Origin: Candidatus Hodarchaeota archaeon
Lineage (GTDB): Archaea; Asgardarchaeota; Lokiarchaeia; Sigyniarchaeales; SOKP01
Assembly: GCA_048886685.1 (NCBI GenBank)
Contig: JBHLKM010000006.1
Location: 32,001-96,000 of the forward strand
Direction: 5' to 3'
Length of the DNA stretch: 64,000 bases
Positions within the stretch are counted from its first letter, which is position 1. Every line of letters starts with the position of its first letter. The notes beneath the pieces were generated by a model, which was not told the origin of the DNA, ran no database searches, and worked only from the letters and a program-made list of their open reading frames with translations. Shown here in pieces: positions 32,737 to 49,518 of this stretch. Made by a program: the position numbers and the translations under genes.

Positions 32737-33234
32737 CTACTTATTCTCAATTAGCAAATTGATTTGTAACAATTCTTTATTGTAATAAATAAAACCATTT
32801 ATCTCTTCAGTGTTCATATCCATAATCGTCCAAATTTGATTTTTAAATGGATTTCTCTTTTTTCCTATATCTTCATCAAGATATATCATATTTTCTATAT
32901 CAATTGAACTAGGGAAAGGAGGAACAGGATGTGAATGAAATATACTTATCATTCTTAACTTCCTATTATAAACAGCATCCTGATGTATTTCAAAATACTT
33001 ATCAGAATCTTGAATTAAAGCAAATGAGCCATAAGATTCAATGTTAGATTTAAGGCAATAGAAACGCTTTCCAATATAATGAATTTGAAAATCATCCTTA
33101 ACGGTCTCAATCTTTTTTATATCTCCAAAAATAAGTCCGCAAGCTTCAGTTGGAGCTGCATTTCTGTTACATTCTTTTAATTCTGCCTCAATTTTTTCAG
33201 TTAATACTAAAATTATATCTTTTTCAACTTTCAT
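32737..33234 (-). CDS. JAB1/MPN+ (JAMM) metalloprotease
   Basis: EACGLIFG ... FHSHPVPPFPSSID (E-x-HxH-x7-S-x2-D type motif). Confidence 0.9.
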   Translation of the reverse strand: MKVEKDIILVLTEKIEAELKECNRNAAPTEACGLIFGDIKKIETVKDDFQIHYIGKRFYCLKSNIESYGSFALIQDSDKYFEIHQDAVYNRKLRMISIFHSHPVPPFPSSIDIENMIYLDEDIGKKRNPFKNQIWTIMDMNTEEINGFIYYNKELLQINLLIENK

Positions 33235-33250
33235 TATCTAATCTCATTAA

Positions 33251-33934
33251 TTATATTAATGTTAATGCTGCATTCAGCGTTGCTAACCTTGCTTTTTGAA
33301 GACTATCACCAGATCCGATTACGATAACATCGTTCTTTTCTAATTTAATATTTTCTTTAGATATATCTGTTTCAAAATAAGTCTGAAGGGATTTATTAAT
33401 AACCATATCATTATTAATCGGTTCTGAATGAGATTTTGAAGGAAAAATTAGATTCTCACCATTAAATACTAAACAAGTTGCTCCAGAACCACTTATTTTA
33501 ATAGCAGCATCTCTTTGAGAAACACCATTTGATATTTTACGAGATCCGTTTTTTACTAAACAAAAATAAGAATATGTTTTATCAGTTTCTATAATAATGT
33601 CTTTTAGTATGGAAGATTTACCTTCTTTAATAATGGGTATTATTTTTTTAATTTTGTTTAAATAATCTATGCCTTTTTCTGTTAAGAAATGTCCCCTGCG
33701 TTTCCTTTCATCTGTTACATTAACAAATTTGATGTTCTTATTCAGCTTCTTAATCATCGATTTAGCGGTTCCCTCACCTATTAATAATTCTTTTTGTAAA
33801 CGGTATCTTCCGATACCCTCGCGATTTTCATCAAATATGAATAAAGCCAATATGATATGAACTTTCTCAAATGTTGGTTTAATTGTGGAGCTTTGAAATA
33901 GACTATCTAATTCTTCAAACATCACTAGATTCAA
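33251..33934 (-). CDS. Winged-helix protein, DUF4443-like
   Basis: IGRYRLQKELLIGEGTAKS...GHFLTEKG; QRDAAIKISGSGATCLVF. Confidence 0.7.
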   Translation of the reverse strand: MNLVMFEELDSLFQSSTIKPTFEKVHIILALFIFDENREGIGRYRLQKELLIGEGTAKSMIKKLNKNIKFVNVTDERKRRGHFLTEKGIDYLNKIKKIIPIIKEGKSSILKDIIIETDKTYSYFCLVKNGSRKISNGVSQRDAAIKISGSGATCLVFNGENLIFPSKSHSEPINNDMVINKSLQTYFETDISKENIKLEKNDVIVIGSGDSLQKARLATLNAALTLI

Positions 33935-41719: not shown

Positions 41720-42493
41720 TCAATCACAATCACAGTCACAATCATCACAAGCGCACGCAAAGGGTAGAATACAGCATTGTCCTTTAGTTCCTATAGTAAT
41801 TAATATGAAACCTATAACTATCACTGTTATTCCTGCATTAAATGGCATTCCTCCCCTAAAAAATGAGGTTATACCCCAAATCATTAAGATTATTCCTACT
41901 AAAGCTATGACAATAAGCACGGCTAATGCTTGATTTACTGCTACTGGTGGTTTTGATCTGGGTGTTGGGATTGTAGAGTATTCAGCGGTTGTTATTGGTA
42001 CTTTTGATTCTTTATCAGGTGTTTCTAGTAATTTTAAGTCTTTAGCAGTCTTAACTCTAATTTCAACGGGGAATGCAAATGAATGGCCAAGATTAGATTC
42101 TAATTCAGCAGTTAACGTAAAAGAACCTAGATATTTAGGTAAAATAATTACTGGAGCGCTTACTTTTTGTCCACTTAGAATTGTGCCGTAATAATTGTAT
42201 CCCGATATTACTTCAACTAGGTCTGTACCAAAAAGCTGAACTTTTACACCCTGTATCGAATATGGAGTAGTGTTATGAACGGTTATATTAAACTCATTTG
42301 ACACTTTTGTAATTACATACACAACATTAGCATCCCCTTCAAGGGAAACTTTAAAATCTGATTCTGCAATTGAAATATCACTTGCACTGGGGCTCTCCTT
42401 GAGAATATCAATCACTTCTGTTAAATCTTCGCCGCAATTAGGACAGAATTTCGCATCATCAGATATGTTTGCACCACAATTAGTACAAAACAT
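41720..42493 (-). CDS. Zinc ribbon, Ig-like domain, 2 TM helices and a Cys/Asp C-terminal tail
   Basis: MFCTNCG...FCPNCG, FNITVHNTT..IQGVKV, ends GQCCILPFACACDDCDCDCD. Confidence 0.75.
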   Translation of the reverse strand: MFCTNCGANISDDAKFCPNCGEDLTEVIDILKESPSASDISIAESDFKVSLEGDANVVYVITKVSNEFNITVHNTTPYSIQGVKVQLFGTDLVEVISGYNYYGTILSGQKVSAPVIILPKYLGSFTLTAELESNLGHSFAFPVEIRVKTAKDLKLLETPDKESKVPITTAEYSTIPTPRSKPPVAVNQALAVLIVIALVGIILMIWGITSFFRGGMPFNAGITVIVIGFILITIGTKGQCCILPFACACDDCDCDCD

Positions 42494-42710: not shown

Positions 42711-44858
42711 ATGCAAATTGAATCAAAGAAGTATTTTAATAGACCATATCTTAAAAACAATATCATTCATTATCGACATTATCAAAATAATATAATAAAT
42801 AGTTGTAAAAATAAAAATTCTTTAGTAGTTTTACCAACTGGGTTAGGAAAAACAATAATTGGGATTTTACTTGTTGCTTATTCTCTAAAAAAATATCCAA
42901 AGGCAAAAATAATAATCCTTGCCCCAACTAGACCCTTAGTTTCTCAGCATAGGGCTTCTTGTGAGAAATTTCTTAACATTAAATCTGAAAGAATAATATC
43001 ATTTACAGGTAAGATTTCTCCAGAAAAGAGAATCCTTTTATATAAAAAAGCAAAGATTATTATCTCTACACCTCAAGTAATAAATAATGACCTAGTAAGA
43101 GGGCGTTATGATTTAAGACATGTTTCATTAATTATCTTCGATGAAGCTCATAAAACGAAGGGAAATTACTCTTATAATTTAATCTCAAAAGAATATATTA
43201 ACACTTGTAATGATCCATTGATTCTAGCACTAACAGCATCCCCAGGAAAAGATTATGACCGTATTCAATTAATATGTAATAACTTGCATATCGAAAATAT
43301 TGTTTTTAGAAATTACGAGGATGAGGATGTTAAAGATTATATCTATAACATTGACACTTACATAAATTTGGTAGCCCTACCGATAAAAGCGTTAGAATTA
43401 AGCCATGTATGGCAAAACTTGTTTAGCAAATTCTTAAAATTCTTTATAGATAGAGAGTTGATTAACCCATACAAGAAATATTACTCAAAATTAGATTTTC
43501 TGAGAATTACCCATGATTTATCTCTTTCATTCAGATATGAAAGGGATAATATCACGGAGGAAAAGTATTTAGCTTACCTATTTTATACTGATCCAAAAAT
43601 AATCGATATAATTAAAGAAAATGATATTGATGTGAATTCAGTATATTCCTACTGCTCAAGTTGTATTTCATTACTACATGCTAAAGACCTAATTGAAACT
43701 CAAAATATTACACTTTTTATTTCTTTTTTAGAGAAAATTAAACGTAGAGCTGAACAAGGGATATCATCTGCCAAGAGAATAGTGAATTCGAAACAATTTA
43801 AGTATATTAACTCTGCGATAGAAGAAGAAAGTTTGTTGGATTTAACTCATCCAAAAATAAACAAGATTATTTCGATCATACATGAAGAAATAGAGGAATT
43901 TGATAATAAAAAAATCATAATTTTTGCACAATTTAGAGAGATGGCAGAATTCTTAAAGAACAAACTAAGTGAGGAATTTCAAAATCAATTGATAATTGAG
44001 AAGTTTATTGGCCAATCTTCAAAAATTAATGATATTGGATTTTCTCAAAAAATACAAATAGAGACTTTAGAAAAATTTAAAGAAAATAAAATCAATGTGT
44101 TAATCGCCACTAGTGTCGCTGAAGAAGGAATAGATATACCAAATGTAGACGCTATAATTTTTTATGAACCAATTCCTTCTGAAATCAGATTAATTCAAAG
44201 ACGGGGAAGAACTGGTAGATATGCCCCTGGAAGATGCTATATACTTGTAACTGAAGATACCGTTGATATTCCATTCTACATTGTTGCTAGAAGAAAAGAA
44301 GGTACTATGAAATCAGTTCTAGCAGATTATGAGGGAATTAAGTTATGTGAGAATTTCGAACGCAAATCAATGATATTCCCAATACCTGGAATAAAAAAAT
44401 GTTCTGATTTAGAAGTTGTTCAAAATTTCAAAGAAAGAAAGGAGAGAGAAAGAGAAATTTTAGCGAACCATTCCATTGAGGATATTCTTAATCAATTAGA
44501 TGAATTCTGTAATAGTAAGGAATATGAAAAATTAAAGGAATGTGGTGTGACTTTTTATTCAGATTTAATAAAAATGGATCTTCCCGCTATGAAAAAAAAG
44601 GTATTAAGATTGAAGGGAAAAACAACTACTCCTCAAAATAAGAAAAAGAAGTATCTGAATAAAAATGTAAAATTGTTAATAAATATGGTAAAAATTTATG
44701 GGGATAATGATAAAATCGATATTAAGAAATTACTGGAGCTTGCTCAGGAGGAAGAAATTGTAAATCGAAAGTTCTATGTATGTTTTAATCAAGCTTGTTT
44801 TCAAGGTTATCTTAGAAAGCAAGAGAATTGTGTTCAATTTATTAAGGATTATGAATAA
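42711..44858 (+). CDS. hef: Hef/FANCM/Mph1-family SF2 helicase without an XPF nuclease domain
   Basis: LPTGLGKT, APTRPLV, DEAH, LTASPG, ATSVAEEGIDIP, IQRRGRTGR. Confidence 0.88.
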   Translation: MQIESKKYFNRPYLKNNIIHYRHYQNNIINSCKNKNSLVVLPTGLGKTIIGILLVAYSLKKYPKAKIIILAPTRPLVSQHRASCEKFLNIKSERIISFTGKISPEKRILLYKKAKIIISTPQVINNDLVRGRYDLRHVSLIIFDEAHKTKGNYSYNLISKEYINTCNDPLILALTASPGKDYDRIQLICNNLHIENIVFRNYEDEDVKDYIYNIDTYINLVALPIKALELSHVWQNLFSKFLKFFIDRELINPYKKYYSKLDFLRITHDLSLSFRYERDNITEEKYLAYLFYTDPKIIDIIKENDIDVNSVYSYCSSCISLLHAKDLIETQNITLFISFLEKIKRRAEQGISSAKRIVNSKQFKYINSAIEEESLLDLTHPKINKIISIIHEEIEEFDNKKIIIFAQFREMAEFLKNKLSEEFQNQLIIEKFIGQSSKINDIGFSQKIQIETLEKFKENKINVLIATSVAEEGIDIPNVDAIIFYEPIPSEIRLIQRRGRTGRYAPGRCYILVTEDTVDIPFYIVARRKEGTMKSVLADYEGIKLCENFERKSMIFPIPGIKKCSDLEVVQNFKERKEREREILANHSIEDILNQLDEFCNSKEYEKLKECGVTFYSDLIKMDLPAMKKKVLRLKGKTTTPQNKKKKYLNKNVKLLINMVKIYGDNDKIDIKKLLELAQEEEIVNRKFYVCFNQACFQGYLRKQENCVQFIKDYE

Positions 44859-44921: not shown

Positions 44922-47900
44922 TCAACTAATTTTTTCCTCCTTTTTCCTTATTGAATAATAAACTATTAATAATATTGTGATGATTATGGGGAGAGCAATA
45001 GCAGCAGGATTATTTCCACTAAATAGGAATAGATACCATGAAATAGTTATAATTGAACCAAAAAATGCAATTATGGGACCATATTGGACAGCAAAATTTC
45101 TAATATTATGTCTTAGCATCTGAAATTTATAATTTGTGCTTTTTATTACTTCTAATTCAGATTCATCAATTTCATCTAATATTTCTGGATTTTCAAAATA
45201 TATTAAAAATCGGGGATCATACTTCCCTTGTAGTTCTCCTGTGCTTATTAGATAGAGTAAATGATCTTGTATGTTCTTTTTCCTAATTTTCAATTCATTA
45301 TTTAAAAAACTTATTGTTAAATATTCATTAGCAACAGCCTTAATTGTCATTTCAATATAGGATTTCAATATTAATCTTTCAAGCGATTTTACTTTTTCAT
45401 CTAAGATCTCATTATATTCACTGATAAATTTATTAAAATCTTCTAAAACAAATCTAGATATTTGGTTAAAGTTTTTTGACTGTCTATTGTATTCTCTAAT
45501 TTGTGTAGTAGCTGTTTTACTAATCTCTTTAATCTCTGTTTCAATACTTTTCGCTCTCTTTTGAATTATCACATTTACCTTTTTAAATTCTTTAATTTCT
45601 ATGTTATCCTCTACCTTTCTTTCAAGATTTCCAAGCAACTGGCTCAATTTAATTTTACTGTTATTTATAAAATCTATTAGTTTCCCACGGAAAGTTTCAT
45701 TTTTCATAATCTCTAATTGGTCGTTAACTTTTTCTATCCTAGTACTGAATTCCTCTAAAAATTCGTTCTTCTCCCCTACAAACATTTCTCTTATCTCTGG
45801 TATGAATTTATTCGTACCTTCTGTTTTATTTGCAATATTCCTAAATTCATTTTCTATATTATCTTCTACTTGCCTCGATTTTTCTCTAAAATCCTGTTTC
45901 TTATTTTCAAAATCTTCTTGAATATTAATATAGGAATCTTTATTTTCAGACTCTTTCAAAAATCTATTATAATATTCTTTTAACTCTATTTTAAGTGAAT
46001 TATATTGTTGTACAATGAATTTTTGCATGGAATTAAAGAGACCTAAATTAAAACTTATTTTACTCATAGCATTTTTATCATTTTCTATTATTGATTCGAA
46101 ATATTCTTTAGTTTTAAGGAATTCTTCCCTTTCTTGATTTATTTGAAGCTCCTCTACTTTATTATAAAAATTCTTTGGGATCACTTCCTCAAAAACTCTT
46201 AGATCACTTATTCTATTTTGAAGTTCTAACATATTTGTGCTTAAGGTCAAGTTTCTAATACTTGAGTCATAAAGAGCTAATATCTTACCAACCCTTTCTC
46301 TGTTTGATTTTAATAATTGATTTTCAACGTAATTTCTTAATTCTTTGTTTAAATAATAAAAATCTGTATATAATAGAATAGTTTTATCGTTCTCATTCAA
46401 TTCAGCATTTATTTTTGATATATCTATCATATCTTTTAATCTATTTATTAAAACCTTGCATGAGAGTTTTACTTCATCTTTTAAGTCTATGAGTTTAATA
46501 TTATTGGTTTTTTTCTCTATTGCCATTACATTTATTTTATTAGATATTATGTCATTAATATATTCATTTCTTAAATCAGAAATTTCATTATGAAAGAAAC
46601 CCGTGAATTTTTCCCACTGAAGAATTGTTAATTTGGATTTCTCATTAAAATCTTCAATATTTTTGTTACAATTAGTAAATTTTTTAGAGAATAGTTTATT
46701 TGTCTTGTCGAAACTAGAACCAAGAAGGTCAAATTCGTTCTTTATAACTGCAATTGTTAAATTACTTGATTGATTAAATTTATTCTTGATATTCGTTAAC
46801 TCTGTTTTTAATTTAATAACCTCTTGTGAAACAAATTCATCAAAATCTTTTATTTCAGTTTTATTCCTTTCTTCTATGACCTTATCTTTTAAAGATTGTG
46901 AATGTTTAGCTACGGAATCAATAATAGTCGATTCTAAATTTTCAAGATTATTCAGTAAATGCTTATAAAGCAAATAGAGTTTTTGCTTTTCTTTAATTTT
47001 ATCCTTAACAATAGATTGAATATTTTTAATTTCAGTAAGTTTTTCACTCAATATTACATCAGATTCTTTCTTAATGAATTCGAAAGCCTCCTGAAATTGA
47101 TTTTCTCTTATTTTATTTCTAATAATTTCACCGATTTTTGAAATATCATTATTTAATTTTTCATTTATAGCATTTATCTTTTTTAAATTCGTCTTAAAAA
47201 ATTGAAAACCCTCATGATAATATTTATATTCATTTTCGTATTTTTCTTTTATTTCTACCCATTTTTTAATTGTTTCTCTATGGTTTTCGACAATTTCATT
47301 TTCTTTTGTAGTAATTTGTTGAGATATCTTAAATATTGCTTTATCATACTTGTTAATATCCTCGAAAATTTGATTCAATTGAGGAATTACTAGATTAAAT
47401 TTGTTTTCAATATATTCTCTCTCGAGCGTTTCACTAAAAAGCTTCTTAAAAGCATCTAGTTTCTTCTTCAGATCTTCTTCTACTACAATAAGTTTTTCAT
47501 TCAGGTTTTCCAGTAATTTGTTTAAATTTCTTATCGTTTCCTTTTCTTGAATCTTACTTTTAAGATAAGAGTCAACTTCTACTAGCTTTTTTTGTAGAGT
47601 GGAATATACTTTATTCCATTGAGCTATTTCAGTCTCTAATATAGTCCGGATATTACAATAATATAAAATTTCATTAAATGAATTTTCAATGTTCTCATTT
47701 AGAAAGTCAGCTTCCATTACGACATCTCTTATTATAAATTTCAATCTTTCCTTAGCATAATCAATTTCATCAATTAGAAGATAACTATCTATTTCTTCTT
47801 TAATTTGATTTCCTATATTTTTAAGTTTTAAAGTCATATTATATATATCATTCTTAATATCCTCTACTTTCTCCTTTTCTTCCGTAATTCTTTCTGTATT

Positions 47901-49328
47901 TATTTCTGTGTCCGATACAAGTATTTTTTCTAAGAAATTATTTAAATAAAAGTTATATTTAGTCTTTGCTAAGAAAACTTTTTTAGGTCTAATATTTCCC
48001 TTAAAGAAATTTTTTGAGATCATATCTTTTATAATGGGAAAGATATCCTCTTTTAGCTTGAGATGTTCTAAATTTGAAGTCTTAAATTTCTTAAACATAT
48101 CTGAAAGAGAAACAATACTTTTAGCACTAATTTGTGAATAAAAATTTTGAATGAAATCTTGTTTCCCTTTACTAAGATTTCGGATATAATTCTTAAATTC
48201 AATATTATTATTTAAAACTCTAATATTGAAATTATAATTGAGATTAACATATGAGATAAGGTCTTCTATATCATTGGATAATCCAAACGTCGTTTTTAAC
48301 TGGTTTATATCAATATAACCTTGCTTTTCTAATTCTTTAAACAAGACTCTTTCTATTTCGTCAATAAATTTCTTCCAAATTAAGGATAAAAGAATAATAA
48401 GTTTTGAAGTTTCAATCAATTGAATTTTAGTCCAATTAATTTCACTATTTAATACTTCATTTAATTTAGTGTTTATATAAAAATATACACCTGAAGGATT
48501 GTAATCTAATATCCATGAATATACATTAAGCGTATAAACTATCCAAAAGGTTTCATTGAGATTTTCTGTTTGATTGAATCCAAATCCACCAGTCTCTTTT
48601 TGAAATTGAAGAAGATATTGGAGTTCCTTATCCTTAACTTCTGATTCTAAATCCAAATATTTTAAACATAAAAATTTATAAATTAAGGCTCGAGTCTTTT
48701 TTTTACTATCCCCAATATATGAGCGGAATTGTTCCCTACTATTTCGAATGTCTATTCCTAAAAGTGTGAATATTTCTAATACATAAAATAGAATTCTTGC
48801 AGGGGAGATTTCTTTACAGATATCACATTCTTTATCATGACAATGTAAAAATGAATTTCCCTTTCTCAATGACAAAATAAAGCTTTTAATCTCTTCTTTA
48901 TTATGACTCTGGCCCTCTGAGGAAAAATACTCTTTTAAAAGACCTAGACTTTTCAAGCTTCCTAATGCTAAATAAGTAGAATAAATATCGGGCTGTTTTT
49001 GAGGATCATGTGAAATTTTGAAACCTATTTGTTCATATTGCCTAATTTCACAGCTTTTTATATATTTGAAGATTTTATCTATGCCGTCTTTCTTTTCTAC
49101 TTTGATATATTTCCTAAGTAAGCTAAACCAGAAGATAACTTCTAGCGTTAAGTCTTTTTCTTTTAATAAATTTTTTTTGAAATGTTTATAAAAAGAAACT
49201 AATTTATTAAAATCCTTTACATAATAATTCCCTATCCTTCTTTTTTCAGCATTCACAAATGATTTAAATGGTTCTTTTTTAAATTTGGTAATATAAGGAT
49301 AAGCCGACTTCTGTTCCACGTTAAACAA
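44922..49328 (-). CDS. Giant protein: prenyltransferase/squalene-cyclase-type repeats, coiled coils, PCI-like winged helices and 2 C-terminal TM helices
   Basis: PDIYSTYLALGSLKSLG and YLLQFQKETGGFG...ETFWIVYTL repeats; PCI-like segments ending MISKNFFKGNI, MIDISKINAEL and LISTGELQGKYD; hydrophobic hairpin at the C-terminus. Confidence 0.7.
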   Translation of the reverse strand: MFNVEQKSAYPYITKFKKEPFKSFVNAEKRRIGNYYVKDFNKLVSFYKHFKKNLLKEKDLTLEVIFWFSLLRKYIKVEKKDGIDKIFKYIKSCEIRQYEQIGFKISHDPQKQPDIYSTYLALGSLKSLGLLKEYFSSEGQSHNKEEIKSFILSLRKGNSFLHCHDKECDICKEISPARILFYVLEIFTLLGIDIRNSREQFRSYIGDSKKKTRALIYKFLCLKYLDLESEVKDKELQYLLQFQKETGGFGFNQTENLNETFWIVYTLNVYSWILDYNPSGVYFYINTKLNEVLNSEINWTKIQLIETSKLIILLSLIWKKFIDEIERVLFKELEKQGYIDINQLKTTFGLSNDIEDLISYVNLNYNFNIRVLNNNIEFKNYIRNLSKGKQDFIQNFYSQISAKSIVSLSDMFKKFKTSNLEHLKLKEDIFPIIKDMISKNFFKGNIRPKKVFLAKTKYNFYLNNFLEKILVSDTEINTERITEEKEKVEDIKNDIYNMTLKLKNIGNQIKEEIDSYLLIDEIDYAKERLKFIIRDVVMEADFLNENIENSFNEILYYCNIRTILETEIAQWNKVYSTLQKKLVEVDSYLKSKIQEKETIRNLNKLLENLNEKLIVVEEDLKKKLDAFKKLFSETLEREYIENKFNLVIPQLNQIFEDINKYDKAIFKISQQITTKENEIVENHRETIKKWVEIKEKYENEYKYYHEGFQFFKTNLKKINAINEKLNNDISKIGEIIRNKIRENQFQEAFEFIKKESDVILSEKLTEIKNIQSIVKDKIKEKQKLYLLYKHLLNNLENLESTIIDSVAKHSQSLKDKVIEERNKTEIKDFDEFVSQEVIKLKTELTNIKNKFNQSSNLTIAVIKNEFDLLGSSFDKTNKLFSKKFTNCNKNIEDFNEKSKLTILQWEKFTGFFHNEISDLRNEYINDIISNKINVMAIEKKTNNIKLIDLKDEVKLSCKVLINRLKDMIDISKINAELNENDKTILLYTDFYYLNKELRNYVENQLLKSNRERVGKILALYDSSIRNLTLSTNMLELQNRISDLRVFEEVIPKNFYNKVEELQINQEREEFLKTKEYFESIIENDKNAMSKISFNLGLFNSMQKFIVQQYNSLKIELKEYYNRFLKESENKDSYINIQEDFENKKQDFREKSRQVEDNIENEFRNIANKTEGTNKFIPEIREMFVGEKNEFLEEFSTRIEKVNDQLEIMKNETFRGKLIDFINNSKIKLSQLLGNLERKVEDNIEIKEFKKVNVIIQKRAKSIETEIKEISKTATTQIREYNRQSKNFNQISRFVLEDFNKFISEYNEILDEKVKSLERLILKSYIEMTIKAVANEYLTISFLNNELKIRKKNIQDHLLYLISTGELQGKYDPRFLIYFENPEILDEIDESELEVIKSTNYKFQMLRHNIRNFAVQYGPIIAFFGSIITISWYLFLFSGNNPAAIALPIIITILLIVYYSIRKKEEKIS

Positions 49329-49518
49329 ATTAAAATAAACCCGAAAAACTAAATATTATTATTTTGTAATTAATGAAAATCTTGACATATATTTTTTTTG
49401 AAATTAAAAATTAATTTTCTTTTTATTAATTCTAATGCCATGAGAGTGCTTACAACAACCAAAACTAATCGGAAGATTATTATTAAAAATTTTCAGGGCA
49501 TCATAGAGGGAGAAAATA

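What the first reader, a model, noticed from the sequence alone, without database searches (positions are those of the whole stretch)
44922..49328. 1468-aa membrane-tethered scaffold: prenyltransferase-type barrel, coiled coils and three PCI/DDRGK-like winged helices
Seen: the first ~320 aa carry alpha/alpha-barrel repeats (PDIYSTYLAL, QKETGGFG...ETFWIV) and a HCHDKECDIC cluster. The remainder is long heptad-rich helices punctuated by PCI-like motifs (SIVSLSDM...MISKNFFKGNI; NIKLIDLKDEVKLSCKVLINRLKDMIDISKINAEL; YLTISFLNNELKI...LISTGELQGKYD), ending in a TM hairpin. There is no signal peptide, so the bulk is probably cytoplasmic. Established: PCI domains scaffold the proteasome lid, COP9 and eIF3, and related winged helices occur in the membrane-tethered DDRGK1/UFL1. 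I do not recognise this domain combination. The DxC zinc motif of catalytic prenyltransferase beta subunits is not evident, so the barrel may bind lipid or isoprenoid rather than catalyse.
Basis: partly seen in the sequence, partly recalled or inferred. Interest (0 to 1): 0.72.

Follow-up and report, generated by a model that had tools for sequence, protein, structure and literature searches.

The report
Tail-anchored toroid-headed rod protein, Lokiarchaeia
This is a real, uncharacterised 1,468-residue protein found once per genome in nearly all Lokiarchaeia (Asgard archaea) and not found in other classes; its head resembles the eukaryotic protein-prenylating enzyme but lacks that enzyme's conserved zinc ligands, and it is carried on a long jointed helical rod pinned to the inside of the cell membrane.

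Summary
Window 44922-49328 (-) is one 1,468-aa ORF with a conserved TTG start.

**Architecture**
- A conserved N-terminal peptide.
- An alpha/alpha toroid (aa 35-321), above the Pfam PF00432 cut-off. The AF2 model has pLDDT 89.5. The closest solved folds are protein prenyltransferase beta subunits (Z 19.7-22.1); terpene cyclases score about 15.
- Four winged helices, not three. The two C-terminal ones are PCI/DDRGK1-like.
- About 800 aa of long helices, which the model folds as spectrin-like three-helix bundles rather than plain coiled coils.
- A C-terminal two-helix membrane hairpin.

**Distribution.** The family is single-copy and near-universal in the window's class: 130/132 genomes of its own family and 12/14 of the sister family, which includes the cultured 'Ca. 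L. ossiferum'. It was not found in other Asgard classes. Every source annotation is 'hypothetical' or a generic repeat name.

**Catalysis.** The canonical prenyltransferase zinc ligands are not conserved and no alpha subunit was found. A different motif, H-C-x4-C-x2-[CDE], is conserved instead.

**Best reading (about 50%).** A non-catalytic, membrane-anchored scaffold or tether that holds a ligand-binding head and PCI docking modules tens of nanometres below the membrane.

The scan has met this family before in other genomes, and one earlier follow-up reached the same view.

The parts
44922..49328 (-). Whole gene, 1,468 aa plus stop codon; single copy in its genome
49329..49373 (-). Leader with a conserved G-rich motif (TTCGGGG-like) 12-15 nt upstream of the conserved TTG start codon
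   Evidence: TTG start in 11/11 close homologues; the motif is conserved in the genus-level loci
49257..49316 (-). Conserved N-terminal peptide (aa 5-24; invariant P11 Y12 T14 F16 K17 K18 P20 F21 within the family). The model shows it disordered up to aa 16, then packed on the toroid. Distant members keep an F-K-x-P-x-W-x-P-F-like version
48366..49226 (-). Alpha/alpha toroid (aa 35-321), closest to protein prenyltransferase beta subunits
   Evidence: PF00432 32.2 bits > 26.5; pLDDT 89.5; Foldseek; Z 19.7-22.1 for six prenyltransferase beta chains, <=15.7 for terpene cyclases
48816..48845 (-). H-C-x4-C-x2-[C/D/E] motif (aa 162-171) in an outer-to-inner helix loop of toroid repeat 3; candidate zinc knuckle. 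H162 is invariant and C163/C168 are >=90% conserved. The motif is lost in a few divergent members
48183..48365 (-).
   Evidence: DSSP topology S-H-H-S following the long helix 301-336
47913..48170 (-). Winged helix WH1 (aa 387-472), H-S-H-H-S-S-S with a long beta wing. WH0+WH1 give a sub-threshold UFL1 (PF09743) match
46515..47897 (-). Helical rod 1 (aa 478-938): nine helices that alternate between about 60-70 and 30-40 residues. Its first hairpin (aa 481-560) is the most conserved stretch of the protein
46371..46502 (-). PCI/DDRGK1-like winged helix WH2 (aa 943-986)
   Evidence: PF01399 up to 37.7 bits at this site in homologues; 8c0d_E Z 8.7; DDRGK1 chains, E 0.03; 9e8o_X, proteasome chain aligned over its residues 240-388, 119 residues aligned, Z 8.1
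45345..46364 (-). Helical rod 2 (aa 989-1328), modelled as about three spectrin-like three-helix bundles
   Evidence: desmoplakin, plectin and spectrin 2-4-repeat fragments, 200-330 residues aligned, Z 10-11.3
45195..45323 (-). PCI/DDRGK1-like winged helix WH3 (aa 1336-1378)
   Evidence: PF01399, E 0.021 here; above cut-off in homologues; DDRGK1 Z 9.3 rmsd 2.8 A; CSN4 Z 8.5 rmsd 1.7 A; WH2 vs WH3 hhalign E 4e-4
44943..45080 (-). C-terminal transmembrane hairpin (aa 1417-1436 and 1441-1462) with a conserved G-x-N-P turn (G1438 invariant, N1440 and P1441 nearly invariant) and basic residues on both flanks. The first helix is strongly conserved

Best explanation
**Shown.**
- The gene encodes a conserved, single-copy, class-specific protein of Lokiarchaeia.
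- Its roughly 1,410 N-terminal residues have no signal peptide.
- The protein ends in a two-helix membrane hairpin.
- The membrane-distal end carries an alpha/alpha toroid whose nearest solved folds are protein prenyltransferase beta subunits, followed by two winged helices.
- The rest is two helical rods, each ending in a PCI/DDRGK1-type winged helix. The second of these lies next to the membrane anchor.

**Inferred.**
- The protein faces the cytoplasm. Basic residues flank both ends of the hairpin.
- It acts as a non-catalytic, membrane-anchored scaffold or tether.
- The rods are modelled as about seven spectrin-like bundles, so they would be tens of nanometres long. They would hold the toroid head at a set distance under the membrane.
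- The aromatic-rich toroid would bind a hydrophobic ligand, such as an isoprenoid, or a peptide.
- The PCI-type winged helices and the strongly conserved first rod hairpin (aa 481-560) would serve as docking or self-association sites, as PCI winged helices do in the proteasome lid, CSN and eIF3.
- A soluble paralogue keeps the same head, rod and PCI module but replaces the hairpin with a longin-like domain. This suggests that head-rod-PCI is the working unit and that the way it is localised is interchangeable.
For: - **Architecture and models:**
- **Head fold:**. Six prenyltransferase beta chains score Z 19.7-22.1 with 246-278 residues aligned; terpene cyclases score <=15.7. (Foldseek) agrees.
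- **PCI-type winged helices:**
- **Rod as spectrin-like bundles:**. Four of six indel hot spots fall in predicted loops, which make up 24% of positions.
- **Loss of the canonical catalytic site:** no Cys or His is conserved between aa 200 and 335 across the class.
- **No alpha subunit:** no PPTA match above the cut-off in the genome.
- **Conservation and distribution:**. These show constant length, single copy, 130/132 and 12/14 genomes, and none outside the class.
- **Hairpin conserved in all lineages:**
- **Paralogue with toroid, rod and PCI but no hairpin:**
Against: - No direct functional evidence exists. There is no conserved operon partner; the only conserved neighbour is a convergent Hef-like helicase. 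No RNA or proteome data were obtained.
- A conserved set of potential metal ligands (D114, H162, C163, C168) lies on the same face of the barrel as the active-site funnel of prenyltransferases. That placement is my inference from helix order. Catalysis is therefore not excluded.
- The spectrin-like reading rests on a monomer AF2 model (pTM 0.33). Z values of 10-11 are below the tool's caution line of about 13 for helical repeats. No sequence-level repeat was detectable between the seven putative units.
- The rods could instead be inter-chain coiled coils.
- Topology and oligomeric state are inferred, not shown.
Confidence: 0.5

Rival explanations
1. The toroid is an active enzyme: an alpha-subunit-independent prenyl or isoprenoid transferase, or a lipid-modifying enzyme. 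It would use a relocated zinc site (D114, H162, C163, C168) in repeats 2-3 instead of repeats 5-6. The rod and anchor would merely position it near its membrane-bound isoprenoid or protein substrate.
For: - The closest folds are the catalytic beta subunits of protein prenyltransferases, clearly ahead of other toroids.
- D114 and H162 are invariant, and C163 and C168 are >=90% conserved, across the whole class.
- Many invariant aromatic residues lie in the toroid (W67, F103, F261, W262). My own knowledge is that prenyltransferase pockets are aromatic-lined.
- Archaeal membranes supply isoprenoid substrates (established knowledge).
Against: - No Cys or His is conserved where the canonical Asp/Cys/His ligands lie (aa 200-335).
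- No PPTA alpha subunit scores above the cut-off in the genome.
- The H-C...C..C motif offers four ligands, which is typical of structural zinc. It is deleted or degenerate in several lineages that keep the rest of the protein (L013, P0150, P0155, P0156).
- An 800-aa rod is hard to explain for a simple enzyme.
Confidence: 0.15
2. It is a UFL1/DDRGK1-like or PCI-complex-like membrane platform. It would recruit ribosomes, proteasomes or a ubiquitin-like conjugation machinery to the membrane through its winged-helix array.
For: - WH2 and WH3 give their best winged-helix-sized matches to DDRGK1 and to PCI subunits of CSN and the proteasome lid.
- WH0-WH1 gives a sub-threshold match to the UFL1 winged-helix array (19.9 bits).
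- Membrane anchoring parallels DDRGK1.
- Picchianti et al. [quoted passage not shown]
Against: - The protein does not reach the Pfam DDRGK or UFL1 cut-offs. The UFL1 signal appears in only 2 of 11 members.
- The same genome encodes a much better UFL1/DDRGK1-like protein elsewhere (788 aa; PF09743 54.7 bits, PF09756 55.4 bits).
- PCI-type winged helices are generic protein-protein modules.
- There is no neighbourhood link to the JAB protein at 32737-33234, 12 kb away, or to the proteasome beta gene that an earlier first-reader note places near 30.5-32.7 kb (not checked here).
Confidence: 0.15
3. It is a membrane-skeleton or cytoskeleton linker comparable to spectrin, plakin or nesprin proteins. 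Rods anchored in the membrane would form a sub-membrane lattice, or couple the membrane to Lokiactin filaments, and so support the protrusions of Lokiarchaeia.
For: - Multi-repeat structural alignments to spectrin, plectin and desmoplakin (200-330 residues, Z 10-11.3).
- A C-terminal anchor as in nesprins (my own knowledge).
- Near-universal, single-copy distribution in a class whose cultured members have an elaborate actin cytoskeleton and protrusions (PMC9834061, title and abstract).
- The first transmembrane helix is strongly conserved, which suggests specific contacts within the membrane.
Against: - No actin-binding (CH, gelsolin or profilin-like) domain was detected.
- There is no Pfam spectrin hit and no sequence periodicity.
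- The Z values lie in the range the tool warns may reflect a common helical arrangement.
- This reading overlaps with the best explanation rather than excluding it.
Confidence: 0.2

Closest known systems
Beta subunits of eukaryotic protein prenyltransferases (FTase, GGTase-I, RabGGTase/GGTase-III; Pfam PF00432)
   Same: - Alpha/alpha toroid of about 280 residues.
- Best structural matches are 3dra_B, 2zir_B, 1n4p_B, 4ydo_B, 6j6x_B and 4l9p_B, at Z 19.7-22.1, rmsd 2.8-3.5 A and 13-18% identity.
- Shared repeat signatures: G-G-F loops and P-D-x-x-S-T at the starts of inner helices.
   Different: - No conserved Cys or His where the Asp/Cys/His zinc ligands lie.
- No alpha subunit in the genome.
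- Fused to 1,150 further residues and membrane-anchored.
- A different H-C-x4-C-x2-C motif in repeat 3.
- phmmer with the head against 1.84 billion proteins finds only the family itself.
PCI-domain subunits (proteasome lid Rpn, COP9 signalosome CSN, eIF3) and the PCI-like winged helix of DDRGK1
   Same: - WH2 and WH3 match PF01399 in most family members.
- They superpose on the CSN4 and DDRGK1 winged helices at rmsd 1.7-2.8 A over 61-66 residues (Z 8.5-9.3).
- The preceding helices plus the winged helix align with the C-terminal halves of Rpn and CSN PCI domains (119-130 residues, Z 8.1-8.8).
   Different: - Several winged helices sit in one chain.
- Each is preceded by long three-helix bundles instead of a TPR-like solenoid.
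- No MPN partner is evident.
- Membrane-anchored at the C-terminus, whereas DDRGK1 is anchored at the N-terminus (my own knowledge).
Spectrin-repeat rod proteins with a C-terminal membrane anchor (nesprins) and plakins (eukaryotes)
   Same: The predicted rod consists of three-helix bundles joined by continuous helices, units of about 108-122 aa, and a C-terminal membrane anchor with a functional head at the far end.
   Different: - No sequence homology (no PF00435 hit, no detectable internal repeat).
- A hairpin anchor instead of a single TM plus KASH domain.
- The head is a toroid, not CH domains.
- The resemblance rests on a predicted model only.
Soluble paralogue family in some Lokiarchaeia (about 1,240-1,260 aa; e.g. 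L035:1881-5618)
   Same: The same toroid (PF00432 50-60 bits; profile E 1e-35 to 1e-45), a helical rod and a PCI winged helix (27-29 bits).
   Different: - No membrane hairpin.
- Ends in a conserved domain of about 130 aa that looks longin/roadblock-like (Atlas score 0.86-0.88; Fuz_longin_1 E 0.007 in 1 of 4). This is a lead only.
- Absent from the window's own genome.

Membership tests
Protein prenyltransferase beta subunit | Alpha/alpha toroid fold of the PF00432 type | tested here: met
   PF00432 32.2 bits against a cut-off of 26.5. AF2 pLDDT 89.5. VIA Z 19.7-22.1 to six beta-subunit chains; the next class scores <=15.7.
Protein prenyltransferase beta subunit | Catalytic zinc bound by Asp, Cys and His at the starts of the inner helices of repeats 5 and 6 (residue identities from my own knowledge) | tested here: not met
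   Across 16-40 family members no Cys or His is conserved between aa 200 and 335. The conserved residues there are K210, L220, Q243, G247, F261, W262 and E326. Positional equivalence is inferred from the linear structural alignment ranges, not from a residue-level superposition.
Protein prenyltransferase beta subunit | Obligate heterodimer with a PPTA-repeat alpha subunit | tested here: inconclusive
   In the window's own genome PF01239 gives one hit of 23.4 bits, below the 29.5 cut-off. Control genomes give hits at the same level. A divergent TPR-like partner cannot be excluded.
Protein prenyltransferase beta subunit | Cys-containing C-terminal (CaaX/CC) protein substrates in the same organism | not tested
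   The proteome was not scanned. Surkont & Pereira-Leal 2016 (PMC4915359) report no C-terminal Cys in archaeal Rab-like GTPases.
PCI domain (PF01399) | PCI-type winged helix | tested here: met
   This holds for WH2 and WH3. 21 of 33 members match at E <= 0.01 (best 1.8e-10). Hits above cut-off fall at both sites. CSN4 Z 8.5 at rmsd 1.7 A and DDRGK1 Z 9.3 at rmsd 2.8 A. In the window protein itself only WH3 matches, at E 0.021, below the cut-off.
PCI domain (PF01399) | Helical-repeat (TPR/HAM-like) extension N-terminal to the winged helix | tested here: inconclusive
   The helices before WH2 and WH3 align with Rpn and CSN helical-plus-winged-helix halves (119-130 residues, rmsd 4.6-7.5 A, Z 8.1-8.8). 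They are modelled as three-helix bundles.
PCI domain (PF01399) | Assembly with other PCI and MPN subunits through winged-helix sheets and a C-terminal helical bundle | not testable with these tools
   No complex prediction was available. A JAB-domain gene lies 12 kb away without conserved linkage.
DDRGK1 / UFL1 (PF09756 / PF09743) | Match to the family models above their cut-offs | tested here: not met
   PF09756 has no hit in this protein. PF09743 scores 17.3-19.9 bits against a cut-off of 23.2, on aa ~302-450, and appears in 2 of 11 members. Another protein of the genome does pass both cut-offs.
Spectrin repeat (PF00435) | Three-helix bundles of about 106 aa joined by continuous helices | tested here: inconclusive
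   In the model, helices alternate between about 60-70 and 30-40 residues. 200-330 residues align to 2-4-repeat spectrin and plakin fragments at Z 10-11.3, which is below the tool's caution line for helical repeats.
Spectrin repeat (PF00435) | Sequence match to the family, or detectable internal repeats | tested here: not met
   No PF00435 hit in 33 members. hhalign between the seven putative units gives E >= 0.003. Only a weak two-unit shift signal was seen (E 1e-3).
C-terminally anchored (tail-anchored) membrane proteins | Hydrophobic anchor at the extreme C-terminus, no signal peptide, bulk in the cytoplasm | tested here: inconclusive
   The anchor and the lack of an N-terminal hydrophobic segment are shown. 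The anchor is a two-helix hairpin rather than a single helix. Orientation is inferred from flanking basic residues.

The most novel reading that the evidence does not exclude
The head is a working, alpha-subunit-independent relative of protein prenyltransferase. Its zinc site would have moved to repeats 2-3 (D114, H162, C163, C168). That would make this family an Asgard-lineage enzyme that attaches or handles isoprenoids on proteins or lipids at the membrane. It would also be a candidate relative of the ancestor of eukaryotic protein prenylation, mounted on an archaeal spectrin-like membrane skeleton.
Probability: 0.1. Interest if true: 0.9.

Novelty: new variant of a known kind. Interest (0 to 1): 0.6.

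Why it matters
- Lokiarchaeia are among the cultured archaea closest to eukaryotes, and their cells have protrusions and an actin cytoskeleton. A near-universal, single-copy protein of about 1,470 aa that combines a prenyltransferase-beta-like head, PCI/DDRGK1-type winged helices, a spectrin-like rod and a membrane anchor is a strong candidate for an unrecognised part of their membrane architecture.
- It bears on the origin of protein prenylation. Dey, Thattai & Baum 2016 (PMC4917890) list prenyltransferases as absent from Lokiarchaeum and argue for a bacterial origin of the beta subunit. Here an Asgard toroid is structurally closer to the eukaryotic beta subunits than to terpene cyclases, although it lacks their catalytic residues.
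- The question is testable. An orthologue lies on a 6,035,313-bp single contig, the same size as the published 'Ca. L. ossiferum' genome (PMC9834061). Localisation, partners and ligand binding can therefore be studied in a cultured organism.

Tried and rejected
- **RNA evidence.** No RNA holder was listed for the gene. This says nothing about expression.
- **ESM Atlas on WH0-WH1.** Only a 0.76 chance-level hit.
- **Profile of WH0-WH1 against PDB sequences.** Only chance-level hits such as CFAP20 and ribosomal protein L20.
- **Whole-length profiles against PDB sequences.** Mostly coiled-coil noise. Prenyltransferase beta (E 0.014) and DDRGK1 (E 0.03) matches were marginal, and the prenyltransferase alignments were off-register because of the internal repeats. 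They could not be used to map catalytic residues.
- **UFL1 model on the WH0-WH1 region of ten homologues.** One further sub-threshold hit only.
- **hhalign among seven putative spectrin-like units.** No significant similarity.
- **Gene neighbourhood.**
  - The upstream genes (a 206-aa protein and a C13 peptidase) are conserved only within the genus.
  - The only wider neighbour is a convergent Hef-like helicase, present in 15 of 22 loci. I regard it as synteny without an evident functional link.
  - The Cys-rich-tail membrane protein at 41720-42493 is not syntenic in any other locus. I therefore dropped it as a candidate substrate.
- **PPTA alpha subunit.** Nothing above the cut-off.
- **Literature.** Five full-text searches found no description of this family. 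Source annotations are 'hypothetical protein', 'conserved membrane protein of unknown function' or 'prenyltransferase/squalene oxidase repeat-containing protein'.
- **Cavity inspection and the position of the Cys/His motif relative to the cavity.** Not possible, because model coordinates are not exposed.
- **Taxon labels.** Some close homologues (58-78% identity) carry submitter labels of Thor-, Heimdall-, Hod- or Hermodarchaeota. The genome search finds the family in only one class. I treat those labels as unverified.

Full report
**1. The observation.**
The stretch 44922-49328 on the minus strand is one open reading frame of 1,468 codons that starts with TTG.

A hydropathy scan finds only three hydrophobic segments. 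One is an inner helix of the N-terminal domain (aa 174-192). The other two lie at the extreme C-terminus, at about aa 1417-1438 and 1437-1462 in the scan and at aa 1417-1436 and 1441-1462 as helices of the model. There is no N-terminal signal-like segment.

The TTG start is conserved in 11 of 11 close homologues. In two of them no alternative start codon is nearby. A G-rich motif sits 12-15 nt upstream. The 1,468-aa reading is therefore preferable to the 1,465-aa version on record.

**2. It is a real, conserved family.**
- A search of 5.8 billion proteins gave 209 relatives. The 120 listed are 47-83% identical over the full length and almost all are 1,460-1,500 aa long.
- Reading all 1.84 billion cluster representatives with the first 480 residues gave only 44 hits. 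All were full-length members or fragments of them, with no canonical prenyltransferases and no other architecture.
- In species-representative genomes the protein is single-copy in its own genome.
- It is present in 130/132 genomes of its own family and in 12/14 of a sister family of the same order, at only about 25% identity but the same length. It is present at 22-23% identity in three further families of the class. With this query it is absent from all other families of the phylum.
- A profile of the toroid alone separates cleanly. Class members score E <= 3e-47; everything outside scores E >= 1.6e-8.
- One sister-family hit lies on a single contig of 6,035,313 bp. That is exactly the published size of the closed genome of cultured 'Ca. 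Lokiarchaeum ossiferum' (PMC9834061).
- All source annotations are 'hypothetical' or generic. Five literature searches found no description.

**3. The head.**
Pfam PF00432 (prenyltransferase alpha-alpha toroid) scores 32.2 bits against a cut-off of 26.5. It is found in 26 of 33 members.

An AlphaFold2 model of aa 1-480, built on a 40-sequence alignment reaching down to 21% identity, has mean pLDDT 89.5 and pTM 0.86. It shows a toroid of about 11-12 helices (aa 35-321), a long connector helix and two winged helices.

Against 48,161 representative PDB chains, the six best matches are all beta subunits of protein farnesyl- or geranylgeranyltransferases:
- Z 19.7-22.1
- 246-278 residues aligned
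- rmsd 2.8-3.5 A
- 13-18% identity

Terpene cyclases follow at Z <= 15.7. Thioester domains, epimerases and glycosidases follow at Z <= 14.7. Foldseek agrees. The head is therefore a toroid of the prenyltransferase/terpene-cyclase class, and within that class it is nearest to the eukaryotic protein prenyltransferases.

**4. Is it catalytic?**
From my own knowledge, the beta subunits bind their catalytic zinc through an Asp and a Cys at the start of one inner helix and a His at the start of the next, in the last two repeats.

In alignments spanning the whole class, no Cys or His is conserved between aa 200 and 335. The conserved residues there are K210, L220, Q243, G247, F261, W262 and E326. 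The linear structural alignment ranges place the canonical ligands in that region. A residue-level superposition was not possible, because coordinates are not exposed.

No PPTA alpha subunit scores above the cut-off in the genome.

Instead, D114 and H162 are invariant, and C163 and C168 are at least 90% conserved. They form an H-C-x4-C-x2-[C/D/E] motif in the outer-to-inner loop of repeat 3. With four potential ligands this looks like a structural zinc knuckle. It is deleted or degenerate in a few lineages that keep everything else.

I conclude that classical prenyltransferase chemistry is unlikely. A relocated metal site is not excluded.

The genome's two other PF00432 hits are different things. 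One is a 363-aa protein with hydrophobic segments at both ends, so probably secreted and anchored. The other lies in an 883-aa frame that I did not examine.

**5. The winged helices.**
The models show four winged-helix modules:
- WH1, aa 387-472
- WH2, aa 943-986
- WH3, aa 1336-1378

*WH2 and WH3.*
- In the window protein only WH3 touches the Pfam PCI model (E 0.021).
- In the family, PCI matches 21 of 33 members at E <= 0.01 (best 1.8e-10). Hits above cut-off fall at both the WH2 and the WH3 sites.
- The two are weakly similar to each other (hhalign E 4e-4 over 87 columns).
- WH3 superposes on the winged helices of DDRGK1 (8c0d_B: Z 9.3, rmsd 2.8 A, 66 residues) and CSN4 (9qo0_D: Z 8.5, rmsd 1.7 A, 61 residues).
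- For both WH2 and WH3, the preceding helices plus the winged helix align with the C-terminal halves of proteasome-lid and CSN PCI domains (119-130 residues, Z 8.1-8.8).
- WH2 also matches DDRGK1 in structure (8c0d_E, Z 8.7) and marginally in sequence (E about 0.03).

*WH0 and WH1.*
- They have winged-helix topology but no firm family.
- They gave a sub-threshold match to the UFL1 winged-helix array (17.3-19.9 bits against a cut-off of 23.2), seen in 2 of 11 members.
- Profile and language-model searches gave nothing.

**6. The rods.**
The second model (aa 340-1468) has mean pLDDT 80.4. Its pTM of 0.33 is as expected for an elongated chain. It shows helices that alternate between about 60-70 and 30-40 residues. 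That is the pattern of three-helix bundles joined by continuous helices.

The segment between WH2 and WH3 aligns over 200-330 residues with two- to four-repeat fragments of spectrin, plectin and desmoplakin (Z 10-11.3).

Caveats:
- These Z values are below the level (about 13) that the tool flags as possibly generic for helical repeats.
- There is no Pfam spectrin hit.
- The seven putative units show no significant mutual sequence similarity. Only a weak two-unit shift signal was seen.

As mild independent support, four of six indel hot spots in the family fall in predicted loops, which make up 24% of positions.

I therefore call the rods 'spectrin-like in the model' and no more than that. The most conserved part of the whole protein is the first helical hairpin after WH1 (aa 481-560). 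Next come WH3, the linker and the first membrane helix. These are likely interaction surfaces.

**7. The anchor.**
All lineages examined keep a hydrophobic C-terminal anchor, with basic residues on both flanks. My hydropathy scan picked up both helices in nine of the eleven divergent orthologues and only one in the other two. Within the window's own family the turn between the helices is a conserved G-x-N-P (G1438 invariant, N1440 and P1441 nearly invariant). This fits a hairpin with both ends in the cytoplasm, which is an inference.

**8. Context.**
- The gene appears to stand alone. There are 190 bp to the upstream gene, and the downstream neighbour is convergent.
- Only the convergent Hef-like helicase (42711-44858) is syntenic beyond the genus. 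It is present in 15 of 22 loci, including two from the sister family.
- Nothing links the gene to the JAB-domain gene 12 kb away.

**9. A paralogue as a clue.**
Some Lokiarchaeia, but not this genome, have a second family of about 1,240-1,260 aa. It has the same toroid, a rod and a PCI winged helix but no hairpin. It ends in a conserved domain of about 130 aa whose nearest language-model clusters are Asgard roadblock/longin proteins (0.86-0.88). One of four copies gives a sub-threshold Fuz_longin_1 hit. This is a lead, not a finding. If it holds, head-rod-PCI is a reusable module that is localised either by a hairpin or by a domain that binds small GTPases.

**10. Interpretation.**
The best-supported reading is a non-catalytic, membrane-anchored scaffold or tether. 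It would present a ligand-binding toroid and winged-helix docking sites tens of nanometres beneath the membrane (confidence about 0.5).

Three rivals remain:
- an active enzyme with a relocated zinc site (0.15);
- a UFL1/DDRGK1- or PCI-complex-like recruitment platform (0.15);
- a spectrin/nesprin-like membrane-skeleton linker (0.2), which overlaps with the main reading.

**11. Comparison with the literature.**
- Dey, Thattai & Baum 2016 (PMC4917890) list prenyltransferases as absent from Lokiarchaeum and favour a bacterial origin of the beta subunit.
- Surkont & Pereira-Leal 2016 (PMC4915359) note Pfam-level alpha and beta homologues in archaea, without evidence for a heterodimer.
- Picchianti et al. 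2023 (PMC10183829) trace UFL1 and DDRGK1 to Asgard archaea. The window's genome indeed has a clear UFL1/DDRGK1-like protein elsewhere, and it is not this gene.

**12. Earlier notes of this scan.**
First readers flagged the same family in several other genomes. One follow-up (e1-5577605) reached essentially the same verdict, which my independent tests reproduce. New here are:
- the fourth winged helix;
- the structural PCI/DDRGK1 matches for WH2 and WH3;
- the spectrin-like reading of the rods, with its limits;
- the conserved TTG start;
- the soluble paralogue;
- the link to the L. ossiferum-sized genome.

Noticed in passing
own genome G000:C5, about 154,522-156,885 (-) (L033:445-2808:-): A 788-aa protein with N-terminal zinc ribbons, three PCI-type winged helices (82.6 bits), DDRGK (55.4 bits) and UFL1 E3_UFM1_ligase (54.7 bits) matches. 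It also has a weak Vps28 C-terminal match (21.5 bits) and a GAE/ear-like match. This is a clear Asgard UFL1/DDRGK1-like protein, in line with Picchianti et al. 2023 (PMC10183829).
   Followed up: partly
L035:1881-5618 (+), L038:2250-5957 (-), L036:1833-5627 (+), L037:2166-5873 (+); other Lokiarchaeia genomes: A paralogue family of about 1,240-1,260 aa with the same prenyltransferase-like toroid, a rod and a PCI winged helix but no membrane hairpin. It ends in a conserved domain of about 130 aa that looks longin/roadblock-like (Atlas 0.86-0.88; Fuz_longin_1 E 0.007 in 1 of 4). In L036 a neighbouring 708-aa protein carries the same C-terminal domain.
   Followed up: partly
window 42711-44858 (+): A Hef-like helicase: NF010337 scores 552.6 bits, below the 610 cut-off, and the best stretch covers the N-terminal helicase part of that model. 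It is convergent with the finding's gene. This tail-to-tail pairing is kept in 15 of 22 loci, including two loci of the sister family that share only about 25% identity in the large protein.
   Followed up: partly
window 49329-49373 and the start codon at 49326-49328 (-): The large gene uses a TTG start codon in all 11 close homologues checked. A conserved TTCGGGG-like motif lies 12-15 nt upstream. This may be a weak, conserved translation-initiation signal.
   Followed up: partly
own genome G000:C5:49261-50352 (L024:1249-2340 +): A 363-aa PF00432 toroid protein (58 bits) with hydrophobic segments at both the N- and C-termini, so probably a secreted, surface-anchored toroid. It is unrelated in architecture to the finding. 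It lies just downstream of a frame that looked actin-like with zinc ribbons by eye; I did not test that frame.
   Followed up: no
window 32737-33234 (-) and 33251-33934 (-): A prokaryotic JAB-domain protein (PF14464, 33.4 bits) lies next to a DUF4443/PH0730-like protein, 12 kb from the finding. No conserved linkage to the finding was seen.
   Followed up: no
NCBI names of close homologues: Several proteins 58-78% identical to this Lokiarchaeial protein are labelled by their submitters as Thor-, Heimdall-, Hod- or Hermodarchaeota. The genome-based search finds the family in only one class, so these labels are probably unreliable.
   Followed up: no
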